Both the position numbers and the translations under genes were made by a program. Shown piece after piece: positions 22,018 through 27,236 of a stretch of 64,000 nt of DNA. A model generated the notes under the pieces. The model ran no database searches and was not told where the DNA came from. It worked only from the letters and a program-made list of their open reading frames with translations. The stretch covers positions 11,208-75,207 of the forward strand of contig JBBSYE010000008.1 of assembly GCA_038045385.1 (NCBI GenBank), read 5' to 3'. Positions within the stretch are counted from its first letter, which is position 1; the number at the start of each line of letters is the position of its first letter. The stretch is from Nanobdellota archaeon (GTDB lineage: Archaea; Nanobdellota; Nanobdellia; Pacearchaeales; GW2011-AR1).

Positions 22018-23835
22018 TTATTTCCCAATTTCTCTCAACTTCTTTAGAGTTTCTTCCATTTCTTTATCTAATCTAGAAGGCGCTCTTCTTTGAGGCTGTG
22101 ACGATACTGGAGCATATGGTCTAGTTTGCGAGGGTAGCATTGGGGGGAATGGAGGTCTTCTTGTTATAACTTGGGAAGACTTTAGTCCGCCGCGGTTTCT
22201 GAATTTGAAATACCAAAGCTGAAGCTTCTTACGATAAACTATGGCCAATACTACTAAGACTATTAGCAGAAGAAGTAAAATTATCCAGCCGTAGCTGCTC
22301 CCTGAAGAGCTTTCTGTATCTTTTGCGAAACAGCAAACTTCGCTAGATAAAGAGCATTGATCTGAACTTTCATCTTCAAATTCAAGGTCACATGAACTTT
22401 GACAGAAACCTCCTGATGATGTACATTGGTCTTCGCTTGTAGTTGAAGGCTCGCAAACTCCAGTGCAACAGCTTCCGTCTGATGAAGGAAGTTCTGTGCT
22501 TGAGCAGCGCTCATTGGATGTACAAACTTGCCCAAGAAGCTGAGAGCAAGATTTTCTGCTTGACTCTAGAGAACAGCATTTTAGTGAGCCTGAACAAACA
22601 TAATTGCCTAAAATTTCTCCGCCGCCATCAAGACATTCAAGAAGAGGGCTACATGAAAAACCTGCGGTTTGGCATTGTTCTATACTCCCTCCGCCCCCTA
22701 TTGAACCTGAACGGGAGGAATCTGGAAATGCGCTATAAAGGACGAATGCCGTGTCTCTTATGTTATTGTTGTTCCAGCAGCCTTTTGGAGTTTGAATGCT
22801 TTGTAGATAGGACTTTGCATTGTCTGATTCTGTTGACTGGCGACCTTGTAAAGCTAATAGTGCTAGCGATGTATCGTAGAATTTATTGTAAGGAGTGGTT
22901 GGAGCTTCCCAGAACTTGCTCTGCTTCTGTGCTTGGACAAGAGTTGAATAATGGTCATCTGCATTTGTAAGTTTGAAGATGAAAGAACTTGGAAGAAGAT
23001 TTTGATTCTCTGGAGCTAAAGCGAGAAGATATGGGATATAGGCAGAGATGTCGTCGCCAGCCTGTTGTAATGCAAGGGCTGCCCAAAGTGTTCCTTCATA
23101 ATCGCAGGAGCTAGAGAGCTTGAAGCATTTTGCATTTACTTGTTCTATTGTTGTGCCTGAAGATGAAGCTGAATGTGTATCTGGAGAAATGAATATGGTT
23201 TCTATTCCTGACTTTTGATATACTAATGTGCTAATAAAATCTTGATTGCAAGAGATTTCAAATTTCTGTTCTAGACAGCTTGAGGAAATTTGGAGCCAGA
23301 AGCCTGAAGGAATTACAGAAAGACAACTTCCTGCATCGCCTGAAATTTTTTGATCTTCTCCTATGTTAATCGTCCTTGTTGTTGAGCCTTGCTTTATTGT
23401 GCATGTGCTTGAGATGTGATTTGAAATGTCAATCATCACAAACCAGCTAAGATCGCTCGTGGAGCCATTGCGCTCATAAAGATATTTTTTTATGTCATTA
23501 GTATTTTTGCCGATATGATCATAGGCCAATAAAACTTGGGCAGTTTCTTTTAGTTTACAGGATGATTTTGGCCAGCAATTTTTGTTTGAACGCTCGTCTT
23601 CAATTTTATCTCTAGTTTTTTGGCTTTCTCCGAGAGCTAGAGTGCTGAATATTGCTTCACTTAAAGAGAGAGAGGAAGAGGTTTTGTTACCTAGCTCTGA
23701 TTCAAGGCATTGGTATGCTTTGTCTATTGAGTCGTCTGAAATATCTGCTGACGGGGAGGTTTGATTATCCGCCGCAAAAACTTGAGAGATAGATATCAAA
23801 AGAACTAATGTAAACAAAAAAACACCTTTTTTCAT
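22018..23835 (-). CDS. Surface protein: alpha/alpha-toroid (prenyltransferase/terpene-cyclase-like repeat) ectodomain, Cys-rich stalk, TM, Pro-rich cytoplasmic tail
   Basis: Has a signal peptide. Repeats include LWAALALQQAGDD, TSLALLALQGRQS and DTAFVLYSAF. A stalk with about 30 Cys (CCTGVCEP) precedes SSYGWIILL-TM and RRPPFPPMLPSQTRP. Confidence 0.6.
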   Translation of the reverse strand: MKKGVFLFTLVLLISISQVFAADNQTSPSADISDDSIDKAYQCLESELGNKTSSSLSLSEAIFSTLALGESQKTRDKIEDERSNKNCWPKSSCKLKETAQVLLAYDHIGKNTNDIKKYLYERNGSTSDLSWFVMIDISNHISSTCTIKQGSTTRTINIGEDQKISGDAGSCLSVIPSGFWLQISSSCLEQKFEISCNQDFISTLVYQKSGIETIFISPDTHSASSSGTTIEQVNAKCFKLSSSCDYEGTLWAALALQQAGDDISAYIPYLLALAPENQNLLPSSFIFKLTNADDHYSTLVQAQKQSKFWEAPTTPYNKFYDTSLALLALQGRQSTESDNAKSYLQSIQTPKGCWNNNNIRDTAFVLYSAFPDSSRSGSIGGGGSIEQCQTAGFSCSPLLECLDGGGEILGNYVCSGSLKCCSLESSRKSCSQLLGQVCTSNERCSSTELPSSDGSCCTGVCEPSTTSEDQCTSSGGFCQSSCDLEFEDESSDQCSLSSEVCCFAKDTESSSGSSYGWIILLLLLIVLVVLAIVYRKKLQLWYFKFRNRGGLKSSQVITRRPPFPPMLPSQTRPYAPVSSQPQRRAPSRLDKEMEETLKKLREIGK

Positions 23836-23877: not shown

Positions 23878-24348
23878 TTATTTATTATCCTGGGTTGGGG
23901 AATATATCTTCTGCACTATTTTTCTCCTTACCTTAAGACTATTCGCCCATTTGGCGTAAGCGTTCCAACCTTGAAAACTTTCTAAAATTTTGTCTTTGGA
24001 AATTTTTCCATTTTTATAATCAGCGATTTTTGCAACCATCTTTCTGATATTTCTCTTTCTTAGAAGCCTGAAATAGTAAAAATTACGAAAACCTATGAAG
24101 TCAATACCTCTTGAAAGTTGAGTAATTTTTGATTTTTGAGGATGTAATTCTAACTTTAATTTATCTGCTAAAAATAGATTAATTTGTTCTTTCCAGATTT
24201 CAAGCTGTTCTTTGCTTTCATGTAAAATTACAAAATCATCAACATATCTTATGTAATATTTTACTTTCAGTGAGTGTTTGACAAAATAGTCCAACTCATT
24301 CAAATAGACATTTGCAAAGAATTGGCTTGTGAGATTGCCGAAAGGCAT
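23878..24348 (-). CDS. DGR reverse transcriptase, C-terminal segment (after frame break)
   Basis: Contains the DGR-RT hallmark GNLTSQFFANVYLNELDYF and the catalytic YVDDF. The frame stays open upstream through LIFWLEPKG into the (AG)8 tract. Confidence 0.8.
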   Translation of the reverse strand: MPFGNLTSQFFANVYLNELDYFVKHSLKVKYYIRYVDDFVILHESKEQLEIWKEQINLFLADKLKLELHPQKSKITQLSRGIDFIGFRNFYYFRLLRKRNIRKMVAKIADYKNGKISKDKILESFQGWNAYAKWANSLKVRRKIVQKIYSPTQDNK

Positions 24349-24371
24349 CCCCTTTGGCTCCAGCCAAAAAA

Positions 24372-24965
24372 TTAACTCTCTCTCTCTCTCTTCGTTTCGG
24401 AGTTCGCAACAATTTTTTTGATTAGACCGATAATATTTTCATCTTTAATCTTTTTTGAGAGAATTTTGACTAGAATTTTATGGTTAACCTTTTCAAAATA
24501 ATGTTTTATATCTGCTTTTAAACAATATCCTTTTATTTGGTTATGAGTGAAAGTTCCATTAGTTTTTCCGTTTTGAGAAATTTTTCTTACAAATTGTTCA
24601 AATCTCTTTAATGCAAATAAGTTGCATTTACCTTTTTGGTTTGCACATGAATCATAAATAAAAGTTGTACCGAAAATTGGTTCAATAATTTGAATTAGTG
24701 CGTGATGTACAATTCTGTCAGGAAAAGCTGATTTAGAGATTTTTCGGGTTTTAGGGTCTCGCAAAATAAAAGTTTTCAATTGCTCTGGTTTGTAAGTTAA
24801 ATTTTCAAGCTCTTCTTTAAGCTTAGTAAGATTTTTTCTTAGAGAGGTTTCAAATTCAAGCACATAGTTTTTCTTTGTTTTGCCCTTTCGTGCATTTTTC
24901 CATGCAAGATTCAAGTTTTTAGGTGTGAAAATTTTTTTATAAAGGTTATTGTATGTTTTTGCCAT
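24372..24965 (-). CDS. DGR reverse transcriptase, N-terminal segment (before frame break)
   Basis: The ATG at 24965 gives MAKTYNNLYKKIFTPKNLNLAWKNARKGK...RDPKTRKISKSAFPDRIVHHAL (RT motifs 1-2). It terminates just after the (AG)8 tract. Confidence 0.8.
   Translation of the reverse strand: MAKTYNNLYKKIFTPKNLNLAWKNARKGKTKKNYVLEFETSLRKNLTKLKEELENLTYKPEQLKTFILRDPKTRKISKSAFPDRIVHHALIQIIEPIFGTTFIYDSCANQKGKCNLFALKRFEQFVRKISQNGKTNGTFTHNQIKGYCLKADIKHYFEKVNHKILVKILSKKIKDENIIGLIKKIVANSETKRERES
24376..24391 (-). repeat. (AG)8 dinucleotide tract at the RT frame break
   Basis: The plus strand reads ctctctctctctctct. The two RT segments are in different frames on either side. Losing one AG unit (or gaining two) would join them. 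Confidence 0.9.
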
Positions 24966-24986: not shown

Positions 24987-25083
24987 CATTCCAAAAGCAT
25001 AGCCGTTGTTGTCGTTCCAGTTGTTGCCATTGACGTTCAACCTGTTGCTGTCCGCGTTCCTGTTGGAATTCAAATCCGCAACC
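24987..25083 (-). repeat. DGR template repeat (TR)
   Basis: 97 nt, AAC-rich (reads N-S-N-R-N-A-D-S-N-R-L-N-V-N-G-N-N-W-N-D-N-N-G-Y). It ends 22 nt upstream of the RT ATG and aligns to 25322-25421. Confidence 0.85.
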
Positions 25084-25285: not shown

Positions 25286-26068
25286 CTAATTTTTTTGCGC
25301 AGCCGCTTCGCGGTCATCTAACACCCCAAAAGCACAGCCGCCGTCGACGTCGTACCAGTAGTCGCCAACGACGTCCAACCTGCCGCTGCCCGCGCCCCTG
25401 TCGGAATCCAAACCCGCAACCTTTAATATAGATTCTTTAGTAGGCTCAAAGGCATACACATTAACTCCTCTTGGATAATTCGTTTTGCAAGCAATTAGTT
25501 TTAGAATTTTGGTCTTCGGAGCATGCTCTAAAATCCTTGCTAGTCCGCCTTCTAAAAAGACATCTTGTTCTTGGACTCCTCTTTCAAAAGAAGCGTAATC
25601 TGCGAAGCCAAAGTCTCTTAAATTTTCTGAATTTTCTACTAAATAGACTTGTCCTTTGCCTGTTTTTATTGGAGAGATTCCATTTAGATATTGTTTAAGA
25701 ATTGCTTCATTAGTTATTGGGTCGCCTTGCTCATCTTTCGGAGGATTAGCAAACACTCCTTCGTTTGTTCTTACTATCCATCCTGCTTGGAGCCATCTTG
25801 GGTCAAATATCTGAGGTTTAGCTCTATTTGCAAAATCGCATGATGCAACTAGAATAGATTCTCTTGTAGTTGGTGCTCTAAATGTTATTTCTTCTCCTGT
25901 TTCGGGATGTGAATAAAGTTTTTGCATTTCTTTAGCATTGTTACTAAAATACTCAGGACCGAAAGCTTTTGCACTTGCTATTCGGTTATGTTTTTTAATT
26001 AGTATTAGACTTCTTGGCGGAGCCTTTGGCTTTCCTGCTTCAATTATTTCGTATCCTGTTTCTGTCAT
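25286..26068 (-). CDS. DGR target (variable) protein
   Basis: 260 aa with no signal peptide. The C-terminus GLDSDRGAGSGRLDVVGDYWYDVDGGCAFGVL is encoded by the VR. Confidence 0.8.
   Translation of the reverse strand: MTETGYEIIEAGKPKAPPRSLILIKKHNRIASAKAFGPEYFSNNAKEMQKLYSHPETGEEITFRAPTTRESILVASCDFANRAKPQIFDPRWLQAGWIVRTNEGVFANPPKDEQGDPITNEAILKQYLNGISPIKTGKGQVYLVENSENLRDFGFADYASFERGVQEQDVFLEGGLARILEHAPKTKILKLIACKTNYPRGVNVYAFEPTKESILKVAGLDSDRGAGSGRLDVVGDYWYDVDGGCAFGVLDDREAAAQKN
25302..25314 (-). other. Hairpin 8 nt 3' of the VR (4-bp GC stem plus G-U, GAA loop on coding strand)
   Basis: The plus strand reads g-ccgc-ttc-gcgg-t. Its position is analogous to hairpins described downstream of the VR/IMH in characterised DGRs. 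Confidence 0.5.
25322..25421 (-). repeat. DGR variable repeat (VR) at the 3' end of the target gene
   Basis: Aligns to the TR with 20 substitutions, all at TR adenines, plus one extra GGC codon. It is GC-rich relative to its flanks. Confidence 0.85.
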
Positions 26069-26137: not shown

Positions 26138-26458
26138 TTATTGTTGTCCTGAAAACAAAGAAACCAGTGTTTTATCTATCTCTTTATCAATTAGCTGAAA
26201 TTTTCTTTCATTCAAGAAAGTTCTTTTTGACAGCTCATCGTGAAGCCTTTTTTTAAGCAGAGCTTTAATTTCAGCTTTATCTTGCGTATTCCAATTATAA
26301 TCGAGAGCTAGTTTTTCTGCTTGAATAAGATAATTCTGAGATTCTTTTTTGTACTTATCTGCATACATATCGCCACTATTTACGATAGAACCAATGCTGT
26401 GGGCTAAGGCTAAGGATAAGAATACTACTAAATTTTTTATTTTATCTTTTTTTGTCAT
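26138..26458 (-). CDS. Hypothetical small protein downstream of the NTase gene
   Basis: The ATG at 26458 gives MTKKDKIKNLVVFLSLALAHSIG..., a hydrophobic N-terminus followed by a helical region. It overlaps the NTase gene end by 17 nt. Confidence 0.4.
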   Translation of the reverse strand: MTKKDKIKNLVVFLSLALAHSIGSIVNSGDMYADKYKKESQNYLIQAEKLALDYNWNTQDKAEIKALLKKRLHDELSKRTFLNERKFQLIDKEIDKTLVSLFSGQQ

Positions 26459-27236
26459 GATTAAGAATAGCGTAAATTTCTGCAATTTCTTTTCTTAATA
26501 TGTTTTGAAGCTCTTTCTGTGTTTTTTTGGCTAATTGATGGTCATTTTTCATAACGCTAAAAATTTTTTCTCCAATGGTTTCTTTAATCTCTAAATCTAT
26601 GTTTTTTTGAGAATATTCTTTTCTTTCGAGAAAATGTTTTATTGATAATAGCTTTCTTAAAGAATCATAAAAAACCTTTCCAGAATCTAGAGGATATTTT
26701 GATAGGTCTTCTGGAAACATCAATAAATATTTTATGTGGTTTTCATCAATTATTATTGGGGGCATCTTTGGAATAGGCTTATTTGAAAGAGAATTATAGA
26801 GCATGCTTCTAACTAATGGAGAAATTTTTAACTGTTCAGATAGTTCTTTTTCATTAACGCAGATTAAATGCATTTTAAAATTAACTTCTTTTGTAATTAT
26901 TGAATGAAATTTCTCTTCTAAATTTTTGATTTCAGAAACAATCATAACATCTATATCGTTATAGTCTAAGTCTTTTGTAAGAAAAGAGCCGAAAATAAAA
27001 ACTTGCTTTATTTCGGGATATCTTGTAAGAACGGAGAAAATTTTCCTTGTTATTTCTTCTTTGAATGGACTCAATTTTTGCGTATTTTTTGAATAATAAA
27101 ATTTTGAACCCTTCTCTAAAAGATTTACTTCAACAAGGTCTCCGACTTCAAAGTAAGGCATTTTATCTTTTGGTATGTAAATCTGATTAAACCTGCTCCC
27201 TCGTGAGATTACATGAGTAAAGGTCTGATTGTTCAT
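26442..27236 (-). CDS. AbrB-like N-terminal domain plus minimal nucleotidyltransferase domain protein
   Basis: IYIPKDKMPYFEVGDLVEV is AbrB/SpoVT-like. VFIFGSFLTKDLDYNDIDVMIVS is the GS...D.D polymerase-beta NTase motif. Confidence 0.6.
   Translation of the reverse strand: MNNQTFTHVISRGSRFNQIYIPKDKMPYFEVGDLVEVNLLEKGSKFYYSKNTQKLSPFKEEITRKIFSVLTRYPEIKQVFIFGSFLTKDLDYNDIDVMIVSEIKNLEEKFHSIITKEVNFKMHLICVNEKELSEQLKISPLVRSMLYNSLSNKPIPKMPPIIIDENHIKYLLMFPEDLSKYPLDSGKVFYDSLRKLLSIKHFLERKEYSQKNIDLEIKETIGEKIFSVMKNDHQLAKKTQKELQNILRKEIAEIYAILNHDKKR

What the first reader, a model, noticed from the sequence alone, without database searches (positions are those of the whole stretch)
24349..24400. DGR reverse transcriptase is split by a frameshift exactly at an (AG)8 tract: possible on/off switch, or an assembly error
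Seen: the N-terminal RT segment reads ...VANSETKRERES then a stop. The C-terminal segment's frame is open back through ERERELIFWLEPKGMPFGNLTSQ. The two frames meet inside ctctctctctctctct (24376-24391, plus strand). Removing one AG unit (or adding two) yields one continuous RT of about 362 aa. Inference: slipped-strand change at the dinucleotide repeat would toggle RT production, and therefore diversification. A -1 ribosomal or transcriptional slip is an alternative. The trivial explanations are a consensus error at a low-complexity tract, or a decaying DGR.
Basis: partly seen in the sequence, partly recalled or inferred. Interest (0 to 1): 0.6.

Follow-up and report, generated by a model that had tools for sequence, protein, structure and literature searches.

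The report
Slippery-repeat off-switch in archaeal DGR enzyme
The reverse transcriptase that drives a targeted protein-mutation system (a DGR) in this tiny groundwater archaeon is thrown out of frame by a real run of eight AG pairs. Related archaea keep the same kind of slippery repeat at the same spot and change its length, so it most likely acts as a heritable on/off switch for hypermutation, here resting in the off position.

Summary
(CT)8 on the plus strand, which is (AG)8 in the gene, lies at 24376-24391 and splits an otherwise intact DGR reverse transcriptase (RT).

- **Not an assembly error.** Five independent assemblies, one of them labelled Hainich well H41, carry the identical (AG)8.
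- **Not chance.** It is the longest dinucleotide tract in the 783-kb genome.
- **Family pattern.** 37 of 64 RT loci examined in the same archaeal family carry poly-G or (AG)n/(TC)n in this loop, between RT motifs 3 and 4. Thirty of those are out of frame (17 need -1, 13 need +1), always at the tract.
- **No decay.** Both halves stay under purifying selection (dN/dS about 0.05-0.1), and conserved residues are retained.
- **Switching seen in relatives.** In two related RTs, near-identical contigs differ only in tract length: G9 intact versus G10 split, and (AG)6/(AG)9 intact versus (AG)8 split. In one of them they also differ at variable-region positions opposite template adenines.

I conclude this is the OFF state of a slipped-strand contingency switch. 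In this strain only OFF was seen and the variable region is static. Recoding at RNA level, or a dead copy, remain possible.

The parts
24376..24391 (-). (AG)8 simple-sequence repeat (CT8 on the plus strand), the point where the RT reading frame breaks. (AG)7 or (AG)10 would be in frame.
   Evidence: It is the longest dinucleotide tract in the genome. It is identical in 5 assemblies.
24372..24965 (-). RT N-terminal part: 197 codons from ATG 24965, covering RT motifs 1-3 including KADIKHYF, then TAA at 24372-24374.
   Evidence: (RVT_1 profile positions 8-110). It keeps 95.8% of family-conserved residues.
23878..24399 (-). RT C-terminal part in the -1 frame: loop remainder LIFWLEPK, motif 4 GMPFGNLTSQ, YVDDF, motifs 6-7 and thumb. 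Stop at 23878-23880.
   Evidence: (RVT_1 positions 116-204, E 5e-12). It keeps 96.6% of conserved residues.
24352..24369 (-). Short hairpin (UUUUGGC-UGGA-GCCAAAG) starting 7 nt 3' of the tract. Its significance is uncertain.
   Evidence: (z = -2.4). The same stem is seen in L060 and a different hairpin in L020, but most relatives have none.
24987..25083 (-). Template repeat (TR), 97 nt, AAC-rich, ending 22 nt before the RT start codon.
25322..25421 (-). Variable repeat (VR), 100 nt, at the 3' end of the target gene. It differs from the TR by 20 substitutions, all at TR adenines (17 A>G, 3 A>T), plus one 3-nt indel.
25286..26068 (-). DGR target gene (260 aa, no Pfam match). Its C-terminus carries the VR.
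   Evidence: The exact protein is found on 9 contigs from several samples, and its 90% cluster has one member, so no VR variant has been assembled.

Best explanation
The (AG)8 tract is the OFF setting of a simple-sequence-repeat switch built into the reverse transcriptase of this diversity-generating retroelement.

**Shown**
- The tract is real.
- It sits in a length-tolerant loop between RT motifs 3 and 4.
- It is the only lesion in the gene.
- In this archaeal family (Pacearchaeota-type Nanoarchaeota) the same loop very often holds poly-G or (AG)n/(TC)n.
- Those tracts are often the only such repeats in their genomes.
- They are mostly out of frame, in both directions.
- The flanking halves remain under purifying selection.
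- In two relatives, otherwise identical contigs carry different tract lengths that give intact or split RTs.

**Inferred**
- During DNA replication the tract gains or loses AG units by slipped-strand mispairing. Neither MutS nor NucS was found in this 89%-complete genome, so such slips would probably not be repaired.
- (AG)7 or (AG)10 cells would make full-length RT, and cDNA copied from the TR with errors at adenines would rewrite the VR of the 260-aa target.
- A further slip would return the cell to OFF and lock the new variant.
- The aquifer population sampled here rests at OFF. That fits its unchanging VR across samples.
For: 1. **Real sequence.** (AG)8 is identical in 5 independent assemblies that are 100% identical to the window.
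2. **Unique tract.** It is the only (AG)/(CT) tract of 6 or more units in the genome.
3. **Single lesion.** The joined RT aligns end to end with intact homologues of about 345-365 aa at up to 71% identity. It keeps all invariant residues, including GNLTSQ and YVDD. Conserved-site retention is 95.8% in the N half and 96.6% in the C half.
4. **Tolerant loop.** Its length varies among homologues from about 2-3 residues to 30 or more. It corresponds to the short 'LPDEGVG' stretch before IPIGSLTSQ in Bordetella bRT (8ub7, E 5.7e-53).
5. **Family census.** Of 64 RT loci, 37 have a long repeat in the loop: 17 need -1, 13 need +1 and 7 are in frame. Of 27 loci without a long repeat, 25 are in frame (Fisher p = 4e-9). 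The repeat lies inside the interval where the frame must change in 30 of 30 cases.
6. **Few extra lesions.** Of the 34 split loci fetched, 28 consist of just two stop-free pieces that meet at the loop or, in one case, a few residues after it.
7. **Selection.** dN/dS is about 0.05-0.11 for out-of-frame pairs in the half downstream of the break. Conserved-site retention there is 96.0% in out-of-frame genes and 97.2% in in-frame genes (p = 0.21).
8. **Specificity.** The RT tract is the only (AG) tract of 6 or more units in 10 of the 15 genomes whose hits were fully listed. It is the only G run of 9 or more in 4 of 12 genomes.
9. **Switching shown in relatives.** At the P0046 locus, G9 gives an intact 365-aa RT and G10 a split one, on contigs 99.89% identical. 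At the P0044 locus, (AG)6 and (AG)9 are intact and (AG)8 is split, with 0 other mismatches over 1.8-2.9 kb between some pairs. Every remaining difference falls in the VR. The substitutions lie at TR adenines, and one difference is a 3-nt indel.
10. **No recognisable mismatch repair.** Neither MutS nor NucS was found in the genome.
Against: - No (AG)6, 7, 9 or 10 allele of this strain exists in the 15-billion-protein collection, and the flank pattern was not found in the JGI contigs. All five assemblies show OFF, so switching of this particular tract is unobserved.
- Assemblies report only the majority allele.
- The genome's second DGR RT is also frameshifted (T6). The lineage might therefore simply be losing DGR function.
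- In-frame tracts are not enriched (7 of 37, against 1/3 expected by chance, p = 0.08). This equally fits a model in which the DNA frame does not matter.
- In the Rifle relative, two OFF contigs carry different VRs while the two ON contigs share one VR. That needs repeated ON-to-OFF moves, or some activity in the OFF state.
- My census is not an unbiased sample. It took the best 30 hits plus loci chosen because they were split.
Confidence: 0.62

Rival explanations
1. Dead or dying copy. A one-unit expansion of an ancestral in-frame (AG)7 inactivated the RT. It became fixed in this population and will not be reversed, so the DGR is decaying here, whatever the tract does in relatives.
For: - All five assemblies are OFF, and no ON allele is found anywhere.
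- The VR is identical in every sample, and the target's 90% cluster has a single member.
- The second DGR RT of the genome is also broken, at an unremarkable T6 run, in three assemblies.
- A few deviations occur at nearly invariant positions (P82, C114, F208).
Against: - There is no second lesion in 361 codons of a 36% G+C gene.
- About 96% of conserved residues are kept, the same as in in-frame relatives.
- TR/VR differences are purely at adenines, 20 of 20.
- The 3-nt TR/VR indel is not a sign of decay. The same kind of indel segregates in the actively diversifying VR of a relative.
- A single slip restores the frame, so the state is reversible by its nature.
Confidence: 0.18
2. Recoding at the RNA level. 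RNA polymerase slips on the repeat, or ribosomes shift by two bases on AGA/GAG codons. Some full-length RT would then be made whatever the DNA length, and the tract would act as a throttle rather than a switch.
For: - In-frame tracts are not enriched among relatives (7 of 37).
- Both out-of-frame states occur, yet the downstream halves stay conserved.
- A hairpin starts 7 nt after the window's tract (z = -2.4). This spacing is typical of frameshift stimulators.
- On a dinucleotide repeat, a two-base slip lets the tRNA re-pair perfectly, and +2 equals the -1 needed here (sequence reasoning).
- Two OFF alleles of the Rifle relative carry different VRs.
Against: - There is no X XXY YYZ heptamer.
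- No conserved downstream structure is seen across relatives.
- As far as I know, transcriptional slippage is documented for long A/T runs, not for dinucleotide repeats.
- DNA-level length changes are directly seen in relatives and suffice to explain the pattern.
- Nothing could be tested without RNA data.
Confidence: 0.12
3. Split enzyme. The two halves are made separately and assemble into an active RT, as with split genes of Nanoarchaeum. The second half would start from the nearly invariant Met of 'GMP', with a GGAG 9 nt upstream.
For: - Met206 is nearly invariant in the family.
- Gene callers start the C-terminal ORF there.
- Both halves are conserved in out-of-frame genes.
Against: - The Met is equally conserved in RTs that have no repeat and are never split, so it is a motif residue.
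- This reading gives no reason why a unique, hypermutable repeat should be kept at the junction.
- No split RT of this kind is known to me.
Confidence: 0.05
4. Assembly or consensus error at a low-complexity tract. The true genome would have an in-frame length.
For: Low-complexity tracts are error-prone, and several relatives' contigs end at or near the tract.
Against: - Five assemblies made by different pipelines from different runs give the same (AG)8.
- The same holds for the second RT's T6 run.
Confidence: 0.02

Closest known systems
Simple-sequence-repeat contingency loci (phase variation by slipped-strand mispairing), e.g. poly-G/C tracts of Campylobacter jejuni and Neisseria and CT/AG dinucleotide tracts of Helicobacter pylori outer-membrane and restriction-modification genes (general knowledge; reviews PMC11868660, PMC3315296)
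   Same: - An intragenic homopolymer or dinucleotide tract is far longer than the genome background.
- Unit gains and losses shift the frame.
- ON and OFF alleles occur in near-identical genomes (shown here for relatives).
- No mismatch-repair genes (MutS, NucS) were detected.
   Different: - The host is an archaeon (DPANN), where I know of no described repeat-based phase variation.
- The gated gene is not a surface or restriction gene. It is the engine of another diversity generator, so one stochastic mechanism controls a second.
- Different repeat types (poly-G, AG, TC, poly-C) occupy the same loop in different lineages.
Bordetella phage BPP-1 diversity-generating retroelement (bRT, Avd, TR, VR/mtd; structures 8ub7-8ube)
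   Same: - The RT is of the DGR clade (profile hit to bRT, E 5.7e-53, with the GxxxSQ and YxDD motifs).
- A TR/VR pair differs only at template adenines.
- The VR lies at the 3' end of the target gene.
- The TR lies just upstream of the RT.
   Different: - No Avd-like gene was recognised nearby.
- The loop before motif 4 is short in bRT. Here it is expanded and encoded by a slippery repeat.
- The RT is out of frame as it stands.
- As far as I know and could find, no repeat-based control of bRT or any other DGR RT has been published.
Programmed -1 ribosomal frameshifting (e.g. bacterial dnaX, IS elements; archaeal fucA1 of Saccharolobus solfataricus)
   Same: Two overlapping frames must be joined by a -1 shift, and a hairpin lies 7 nt downstream of the shift region.
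   Different: - There is no slippery heptamer.
- Relatives need +1 about as often as -1.
- The site is a length-variable repeat rather than a conserved signal.

Membership tests
Diversity-generating retroelement (DGR) | Reverse transcriptase of the DGR clade, with motif 4 [LIV]GxxxSQ and motif 5 YxDD | tested here: met
   GMPFGNLTSQ and YVDDF are present. A profile of the family hits Bordetella bRT 8ub7 at E 5.7e-53. Both halves match RVT_1.
Diversity-generating retroelement (DGR) | Template and variable repeats that differ only at template adenines, with the VR inside a target ORF | tested here: met
   TR is 24987-25083 and VR is 25322-25421. All 20 substitutions are at TR adenines, with one 3-nt indel. 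The VR is at the 3' end of the 260-aa ORF.
Diversity-generating retroelement (DGR) | Intact RT open reading frame | tested here: not met
   The frame is broken at (AG)8 in all five assemblies. It is a DGR by architecture, but with its RT in a non-productive frame.
Diversity-generating retroelement (DGR) | Ongoing VR diversification within the population | tested here: not met
   The exact target protein occurs on 9 contigs, and its 90% cluster has one member. Only consensus assemblies were tested. In a relative's DGR (P0044 locus), VR variants at TR adenines do segregate.
Diversity-generating retroelement (DGR) | Accessory protein Avd (not universal, especially in DPANN/CPR) | tested here: not met
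   The neighbouring ORFs give no Avd match. The 264-aa neighbour is a Pol-beta-type nucleotidyltransferase.
Repeat-based contingency locus (slipped-strand phase variation) | Intragenic repeat whose unit changes shift the frame and which is much longer than the genome background | tested here: met
   (AG)8 is the longest dinucleotide tract in 783 kb and the only (AG)/(CT) tract of 6 or more units. One unit fewer, or two more, restores the frame.
Repeat-based contingency locus (slipped-strand phase variation) | Tract-length polymorphism giving ON and OFF alleles among near-identical genomes | tested here: inconclusive
   This locus shows (AG)8 only, in 5 assemblies, with no other allele found. 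Homologous loci in relatives are polymorphic: G9/G10 and (AG)6/8/9 on contigs 99.2-100% identical outside the tract.
Repeat-based contingency locus (slipped-strand phase variation) | The gene stays functional, with purifying selection despite frequent OFF states | tested here: met
   dN/dS is about 0.05-0.11 in the downstream half of out-of-frame pairs. Conserved-site retention is 96% in out-of-frame genes and 97% in in-frame genes. 28 of 34 split loci show no other lesion.
Repeat-based contingency locus (slipped-strand phase variation) | Reversible switching measured within a clonal population, with a phenotype | not testable with these tools
Programmed -1 ribosomal frameshift | Slippery heptamer X XXY YYZ in the zero frame | tested here: not met
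   The sequence around the break is ACG AAG AGA GAG AGA GAG AGU UAA, which contains no such heptamer.
Programmed -1 ribosomal frameshift | Conserved shift direction and stimulatory structure among homologues | tested here: not met
   17 loci need -1 and 13 need +1. Downstream hairpins are present in the window, L060 and L020 but not in general.

The most novel reading that the evidence does not exclude
The tract may be a two-layer rheostat rather than a plain on/off switch. DNA slippage would set a heritable state. On top of that, slippage of RNA polymerase, or two-base ribosome shifts on the AGA/GAG repeat, would let 'OFF' alleles still make a trickle of RT.

In most cells of these DPANN archaea, and of the CPR bacteria with the same feature, hypermutation would then idle at a low level and surge after a one-unit slip. 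Three observations would follow from this:
- In-frame tracts are not enriched.
- Different VRs sit on identical OFF alleles in the Rifle relative.
- A hairpin follows the window's tract at the spacing typical of a frameshift stimulator.
Probability: 0.15. Interest if true: 0.85.

Novelty: new variant of a known kind. Interest (0 to 1): 0.7.

Why it matters
DGRs are the only known natural systems for targeted protein hypermutation in prokaryotes. How cells control them is largely unknown.

A slippery repeat kept inside the RT gene would mean that hypermutation itself is switched on and off stochastically and heritably. A cell could mutate its surface or ligand-binding protein, then lock the result.

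The pattern is common here. Roughly a third to a half of the RT genes listed for this archaeal family are split at the loop. About a fifth of RT matches in a sample across the phylum sit in short open frames that suggest the same.

As far as I could find, this would also be a first clear case of repeat-based phase variation in Archaea. It has three practical consequences:
- 'Broken' RTs in metagenomic DGR surveys should not be discarded as pseudogenes.
- DGR activity estimates should be stratified by tract state.
- The idea is directly testable with existing groundwater read sets.

The same pattern has already been flagged in other genomes of this scan. This window adds a case whose OFF state is verified in five assemblies. 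It also adds a statistical census of one family, and a relative in which tract length and VR vary together.

Tried and rejected
- **Read pile-ups.** I used independent public assemblies instead.
- **First allele look-up.** My first exact look-up of intact alleles used the MAKTYNN start, which gene callers do not use, so it was uninformative. I repeated it with the three starts actually on record for (AG)6, 7, 9 and 10. None was found.
- **Pattern scan.** A scan of JGI metagenome contigs with both flanks and a variable gap found nothing, not even the (AG)8 allele. The strain is simply absent from that collection.
- **dN/dS.** Synonymous sites are saturated (pS 0.6-0.8), so the values are rough upper-level indications only. 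I added a conserved-site retention test.
- **Conserved RNA structure.** Hairpins are present in some loci, and inverted repeats flank some G runs, but there is no general motif. I rejected this as a defining feature.
- **Classical -1 frameshift.** Rejected, because there is no heptamer and the shift directions are mixed.
- **The 3-nt TR/VR indel as a sign of decay.** Rejected after the same kind of indel was seen segregating in an active relative.
- **Second RT as a back-up enzyme.** The second DGR RT on contig C1 was considered as a possible substitute supplied from elsewhere in the genome. It is itself frameshifted.
- **Literature.** Four searches for a published description of repeat-controlled DGR RTs, plus text searches within two DGR survey papers, found none.
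Full report
**What is there**

On the minus strand of the window lies a compact diversity-generating retroelement (DGR). Its parts are:
- a 260-aa target gene (26068-25286);
- a variable repeat (VR, 25421-25322) at the 3' end of that gene;
- a 97-nt AAC-rich template repeat (TR, 25083-24987);
- a reverse transcriptase (RT) gene starting 22 nt after the TR, at ATG 24965.

TR and VR differ by 20 substitutions, all at TR adenines (17 A>G, 3 A>T out of 31 adenines), plus one 3-nt indel.

The RT frame reads ...VANSETKRERES and stops at TAA 24372-24374. A second frame, open from 24399, continues ...LIFWLEPKGMPFGNLTSQ...YVDDF... to 23878. The two frames meet in (AG)8, which is (CT)8 on the plus strand at 24376-24391. 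A -1 shift joins them. (AG)7 gives a 361-aa RT and (AG)10 a 363-aa RT.

**Is it real, and is it more than chance?**

The window is contig C8:11208-75207 of a 782,892-base, 8-contig, 35.5% G+C genome. In that genome (CT)8 is the only dinucleotide tract of 8 units. The next longest is (AT)6, and no other AG/CT tract exceeds 5 units.

I looked up contigs that encode the exact target protein and the exact C-terminal RT ORF instead. The locus occurs in:
- GCA_964356955.1;
- Logan assemblies of ERR3858120 and SRR32696708 (the Logan contigs of SRR32696710 and SRR32696712 carry the target gene but end in the TR, before the tract);
- ENA ERZ1292633, contig 'Hain_H41_02um...', which I take to be Hainich groundwater well H41.

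All are 100% identical to the window over 1.0-8.8 kb, and every contig that reaches the tract has (AG)8. An assembly error is therefore very unlikely.

**Is the gene otherwise sound?**

The joined protein finds thousands of full-length homologues of about 345-365 aa in Nanoarchaeota and Pacearchaeota, at 62-71% identity for the 120 best. It shares every invariant residue of a 41-sequence alignment. A profile of that alignment hits the Bordetella phage DGR RT (8ub7) at E 5.7e-53. The break lies in a loop between 'ILxN' and 'KGMPLGNLTSQ', that is, between RT motifs 3 and 4. That loop varies among homologues from about 2-3 residues to 30 or more and is short in bRT. No second lesion exists.

**The decisive lead: relatives**

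I searched 200 genomes of the same family with the joined RT. 86 genomes had matches. Very many matches were split in two at query residues about 190-205, the same loop.

I fetched 40 such loci, of which 35 span the loop and 5 are contig ends that start or stop in the RT gene, together with the 30 best-scoring loci.

The loop DNA of the split genes holds one of three repeat types:
- poly-G (G8-G11, usually followed by CGAA);
- (AG)n or (GA)n, with n from 5 to 27;
- (TC)14.

The census covers 64 loci:

| Loop content | Need -1 | Need +1 | In frame |
|---|---|---|---|
| Long repeat (37 loci) | 17 | 13 | 7 |
| No long repeat (27 loci) | 2 out of frame in total | | 25 |

- The association between frame break and repeat is strong (Fisher p = 4e-9).
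- In all 30 out-of-frame repeat-bearing genes, the repeat lies inside the interval where the frame must change.
- Of the 34 split loci fetched, 28 consist of just two stop-free pieces that meet at the loop or, in one case, a few residues after it.

The same-genus genome G102 also has a loop-split RT, with (AG)7 in the +1 state.

A coarser search across the phylum with the C-terminal half put about a fifth of RT matches in short open frames that suggest the same split. I did not fetch those loci.

This census is not an unbiased sample, because part of it was chosen for being split. However, in the ranked list, roughly 30 split loci stand beside about 54 intact ones.

**Are the split genes pseudogenes?**

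No, as a class.
- Synonymous sites between genera are saturated (pS 0.6-0.8) while pN is 0.10-0.15. This gives dN/dS of about 0.05-0.11 for pairs in which both genes are out of frame, in the half downstream of the break. In-frame pairs give similar values.
- Residues conserved in 90% or more of in-frame RTs are kept at 96.0% in the downstream half of out-of-frame genes, against 97.2% in in-frame genes (p = 0.21). The window's RT keeps 95.8% in the N half and 96.6% in the C half.
- The repeats are not a genome-wide habit. The RT tract is the only (AG) tract of 6 or more units in 10 of the 15 genomes whose hits were fully listed, and the only G run of 9 or more in 4 of 12 genomes.

A unique, hypermutable tract kept at one permissive loop of one gene, in several repeat flavours, is what selection for switchability predicts.

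**Direct evidence of switching, in relatives**

Clusters of proteins at 90% identity or more, built around two intact homologues, contained both full-length and truncated members. I fetched their DNA.

*P0046 locus (poly-G).* An ENA contig from sample set ANAN16-1 has G9 and an intact 365-aa RT. A JGI contig (3300025323) has G10 and a split RT. The two are 99.89% identical over 1,818 nt: one mismatch plus the one-base gap.

*P0044 locus ((AG)n).*

| Allele | RT | Contigs |
|---|---|---|
| (AG)6 | intact, 414 aa | L091 |
| (AG)9 | intact, 416 aa | L087 |
| (AG)8 | split | L088, L089, L090 |

- L087 and L091 differ by nothing but the 6-nt gap over 2,903 nt.
- L087 and L089 differ by nothing but a 2-nt gap over 1,805 nt.
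- All remaining differences between L087 and L088 or L090 fall in the VR. The substitutions are at positions where the TR has adenine, and one difference is a 3-nt indel.

In that population, then, the DGR diversifies its target and the RT tract changes length, and nothing else differs. This also shows that the window's 3-nt TR/VR indel is not a sign of decay.

**This strain**

- Only OFF was seen.
- Exact look-ups of (AG)6, 7, 9 and 10 products, with the start codons that gene callers actually use, found nothing.
- The target protein's 90% cluster has a single member, so no alternative VR has been assembled.
- A flank-pattern scan of JGI contigs found nothing.
- The genome's second DGR (contig C1) has 15 of 15 adenine-specific TR/VR differences. 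Its RT is frameshifted too, at an ordinary T6 run where T7 is needed, at the palm-thumb junction. This is identical in three assemblies. No intact DGR RT is therefore encoded anywhere in the consensus genome.
- Neither MutS nor NucS is detectable in the 89%-complete genome. Slippage intermediates would probably go unrepaired.

**Mechanism I commit to (confidence about 0.62)**

The tract is the OFF state of a slipped-strand contingency switch that gates RT synthesis, and hence mutagenic homing. (AG)7 or (AG)10 cells would be ON. The sampled population rests at OFF with a locked VR.

Shown:
- the reality of the tract;
- the single lesion;
- the family-wide association of tract and frame break;
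- selection on both halves;
- length polymorphism with ON and OFF alleles in relatives.

Inferred:
- switching of this particular tract;
- its rate;
- the consequence for homing.

**Rivals**

- **A dead copy in this lineage (0.18).** It fits the fixed OFF state, the static VR and the second broken RT. There is no decay signal, however.
- **RNA-level recoding (0.12).** Four things keep it alive. In-frame tracts are not enriched (7 of 37). A hairpin starts 7 nt after the tract (z = -2.4). A two-base slip on the repeat allows perfect re-pairing. Two identical OFF alleles of the Rifle relative carry different VRs, while the two ON alleles share one. Against it, there is no slippery heptamer, no conserved structure and no uniform shift direction.
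- **A split two-piece enzyme (0.05).** It does not explain why the repeat is kept.
- **Assembly error (0.02).**

**Comparison with what is known**

By architecture this is a DGR: an RT of the bRT clade, an adenine-specific TR/VR pair, and a VR at a target's 3' end. It has no recognisable Avd, and its RT is not in a productive frame.

The control element works like the repeat-based contingency loci of Campylobacter, Neisseria, Haemophilus and Helicobacter. It meets their sequence-level criteria. Polymorphism is shown only at homologous loci.

Four full-text searches and text searches within two DGR survey papers found no description of a repeat-controlled DGR RT. Paul et al. 2017 could not be read.

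Earlier notes of this scan report the same phenomenon in other CPR and DPANN genomes. I treated them as leads.

**Verdict**

I rate it a new variant of known kinds (phase variation applied to the DGR engine, in an archaeon), with interest 0.7.

Noticed in passing
L001:2098-2120 (= genome contig C1 about 100675-100697; outside the window): The genome's second DGR RT is also out of frame. GTTTTTTC (T6) separates '...GINFLGFRVF' from 'FYHKLIRK...', and T7 would join them; again a -1 shift is needed. The state is identical in three assemblies. Its TR (C1:101291-101379) and VR (C1:102287-102375) differ at 15 positions, all at template adenines.
   Followed up: partly
L051, L049, L053, L045 and other poly-G loci (loop region of relatives' RT genes): Poly-G tracts are nearly always followed by CGAAC or CGAAG. 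In some loci they are flanked by inverted repeats, so the G run would sit in a hairpin loop. An example is L051: AACTCGTTCG-G11-CGAACGAGTT. GCGAAC also precedes the (AG) tract in the window's subgroup. This may be a portable cassette, or it may reflect a slippage-promoting structure.
   Followed up: partly
L087:701-787 versus L088 and L090 (Rifle-type aquifer contigs, P0044 locus): Two contigs with the identical OFF tract (AG)8 carry different VRs, while the two ON contigs, (AG)6 and (AG)9, share one VR. With only four contigs this proves nothing. It is still the opposite of the naive expectation for a strict on/off switch.
   Followed up: partly
G079:C36 end / G079:C7 start; G086:C36 start; G141:C12 and C74 starts (loci L080-L084): Several relatives' contigs begin or end within about 100 nt of the RT repeat tract. 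This would be expected if tract-length heterogeneity or poly-G sequencing trouble breaks assemblies there.
   Followed up: no
P0002, P0016, P0029, P0103, P0111 (proteins) and L072: Some intact homologues encode 'PPP/PPPP' in the loop, which means a poly-C run on the coding strand (C7 in L072). Two repeat types are thus seen in both strand orientations: G runs with C runs, and AG tracts with TC tracts.
   Followed up: no
window 23665-23674: (AG)5 on the plus strand, (CT)5 in the gene, lies near the 5' end of the neighbouring 605-aa cysteine-rich secreted protein gene (22018-23835, minus strand). It is one of only five AG/CT-type tracts of 5 units in the genome.
   Followed up: no
window 26138-27236 (minus strand): Directly upstream of the DGR target lies a Pol-beta-type nucleotidyltransferase (264 aa). 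It overlaps a 115-aa helical ORF with no family match. The arrangement resembles a nucleotidyltransferase/HEPN-type pair. No Avd-like gene is present.
   Followed up: no
window 25297-25315 (minus strand): A G+C-rich stretch, GACCGCGAAGCGGCTGCGC, with a small CCGC-GAA-GCGG hairpin lies just 3' of the VR, inside the last codons of the target gene. It recalls the hairpin that marks DGR target sites in Bordetella phage.
   Followed up: no
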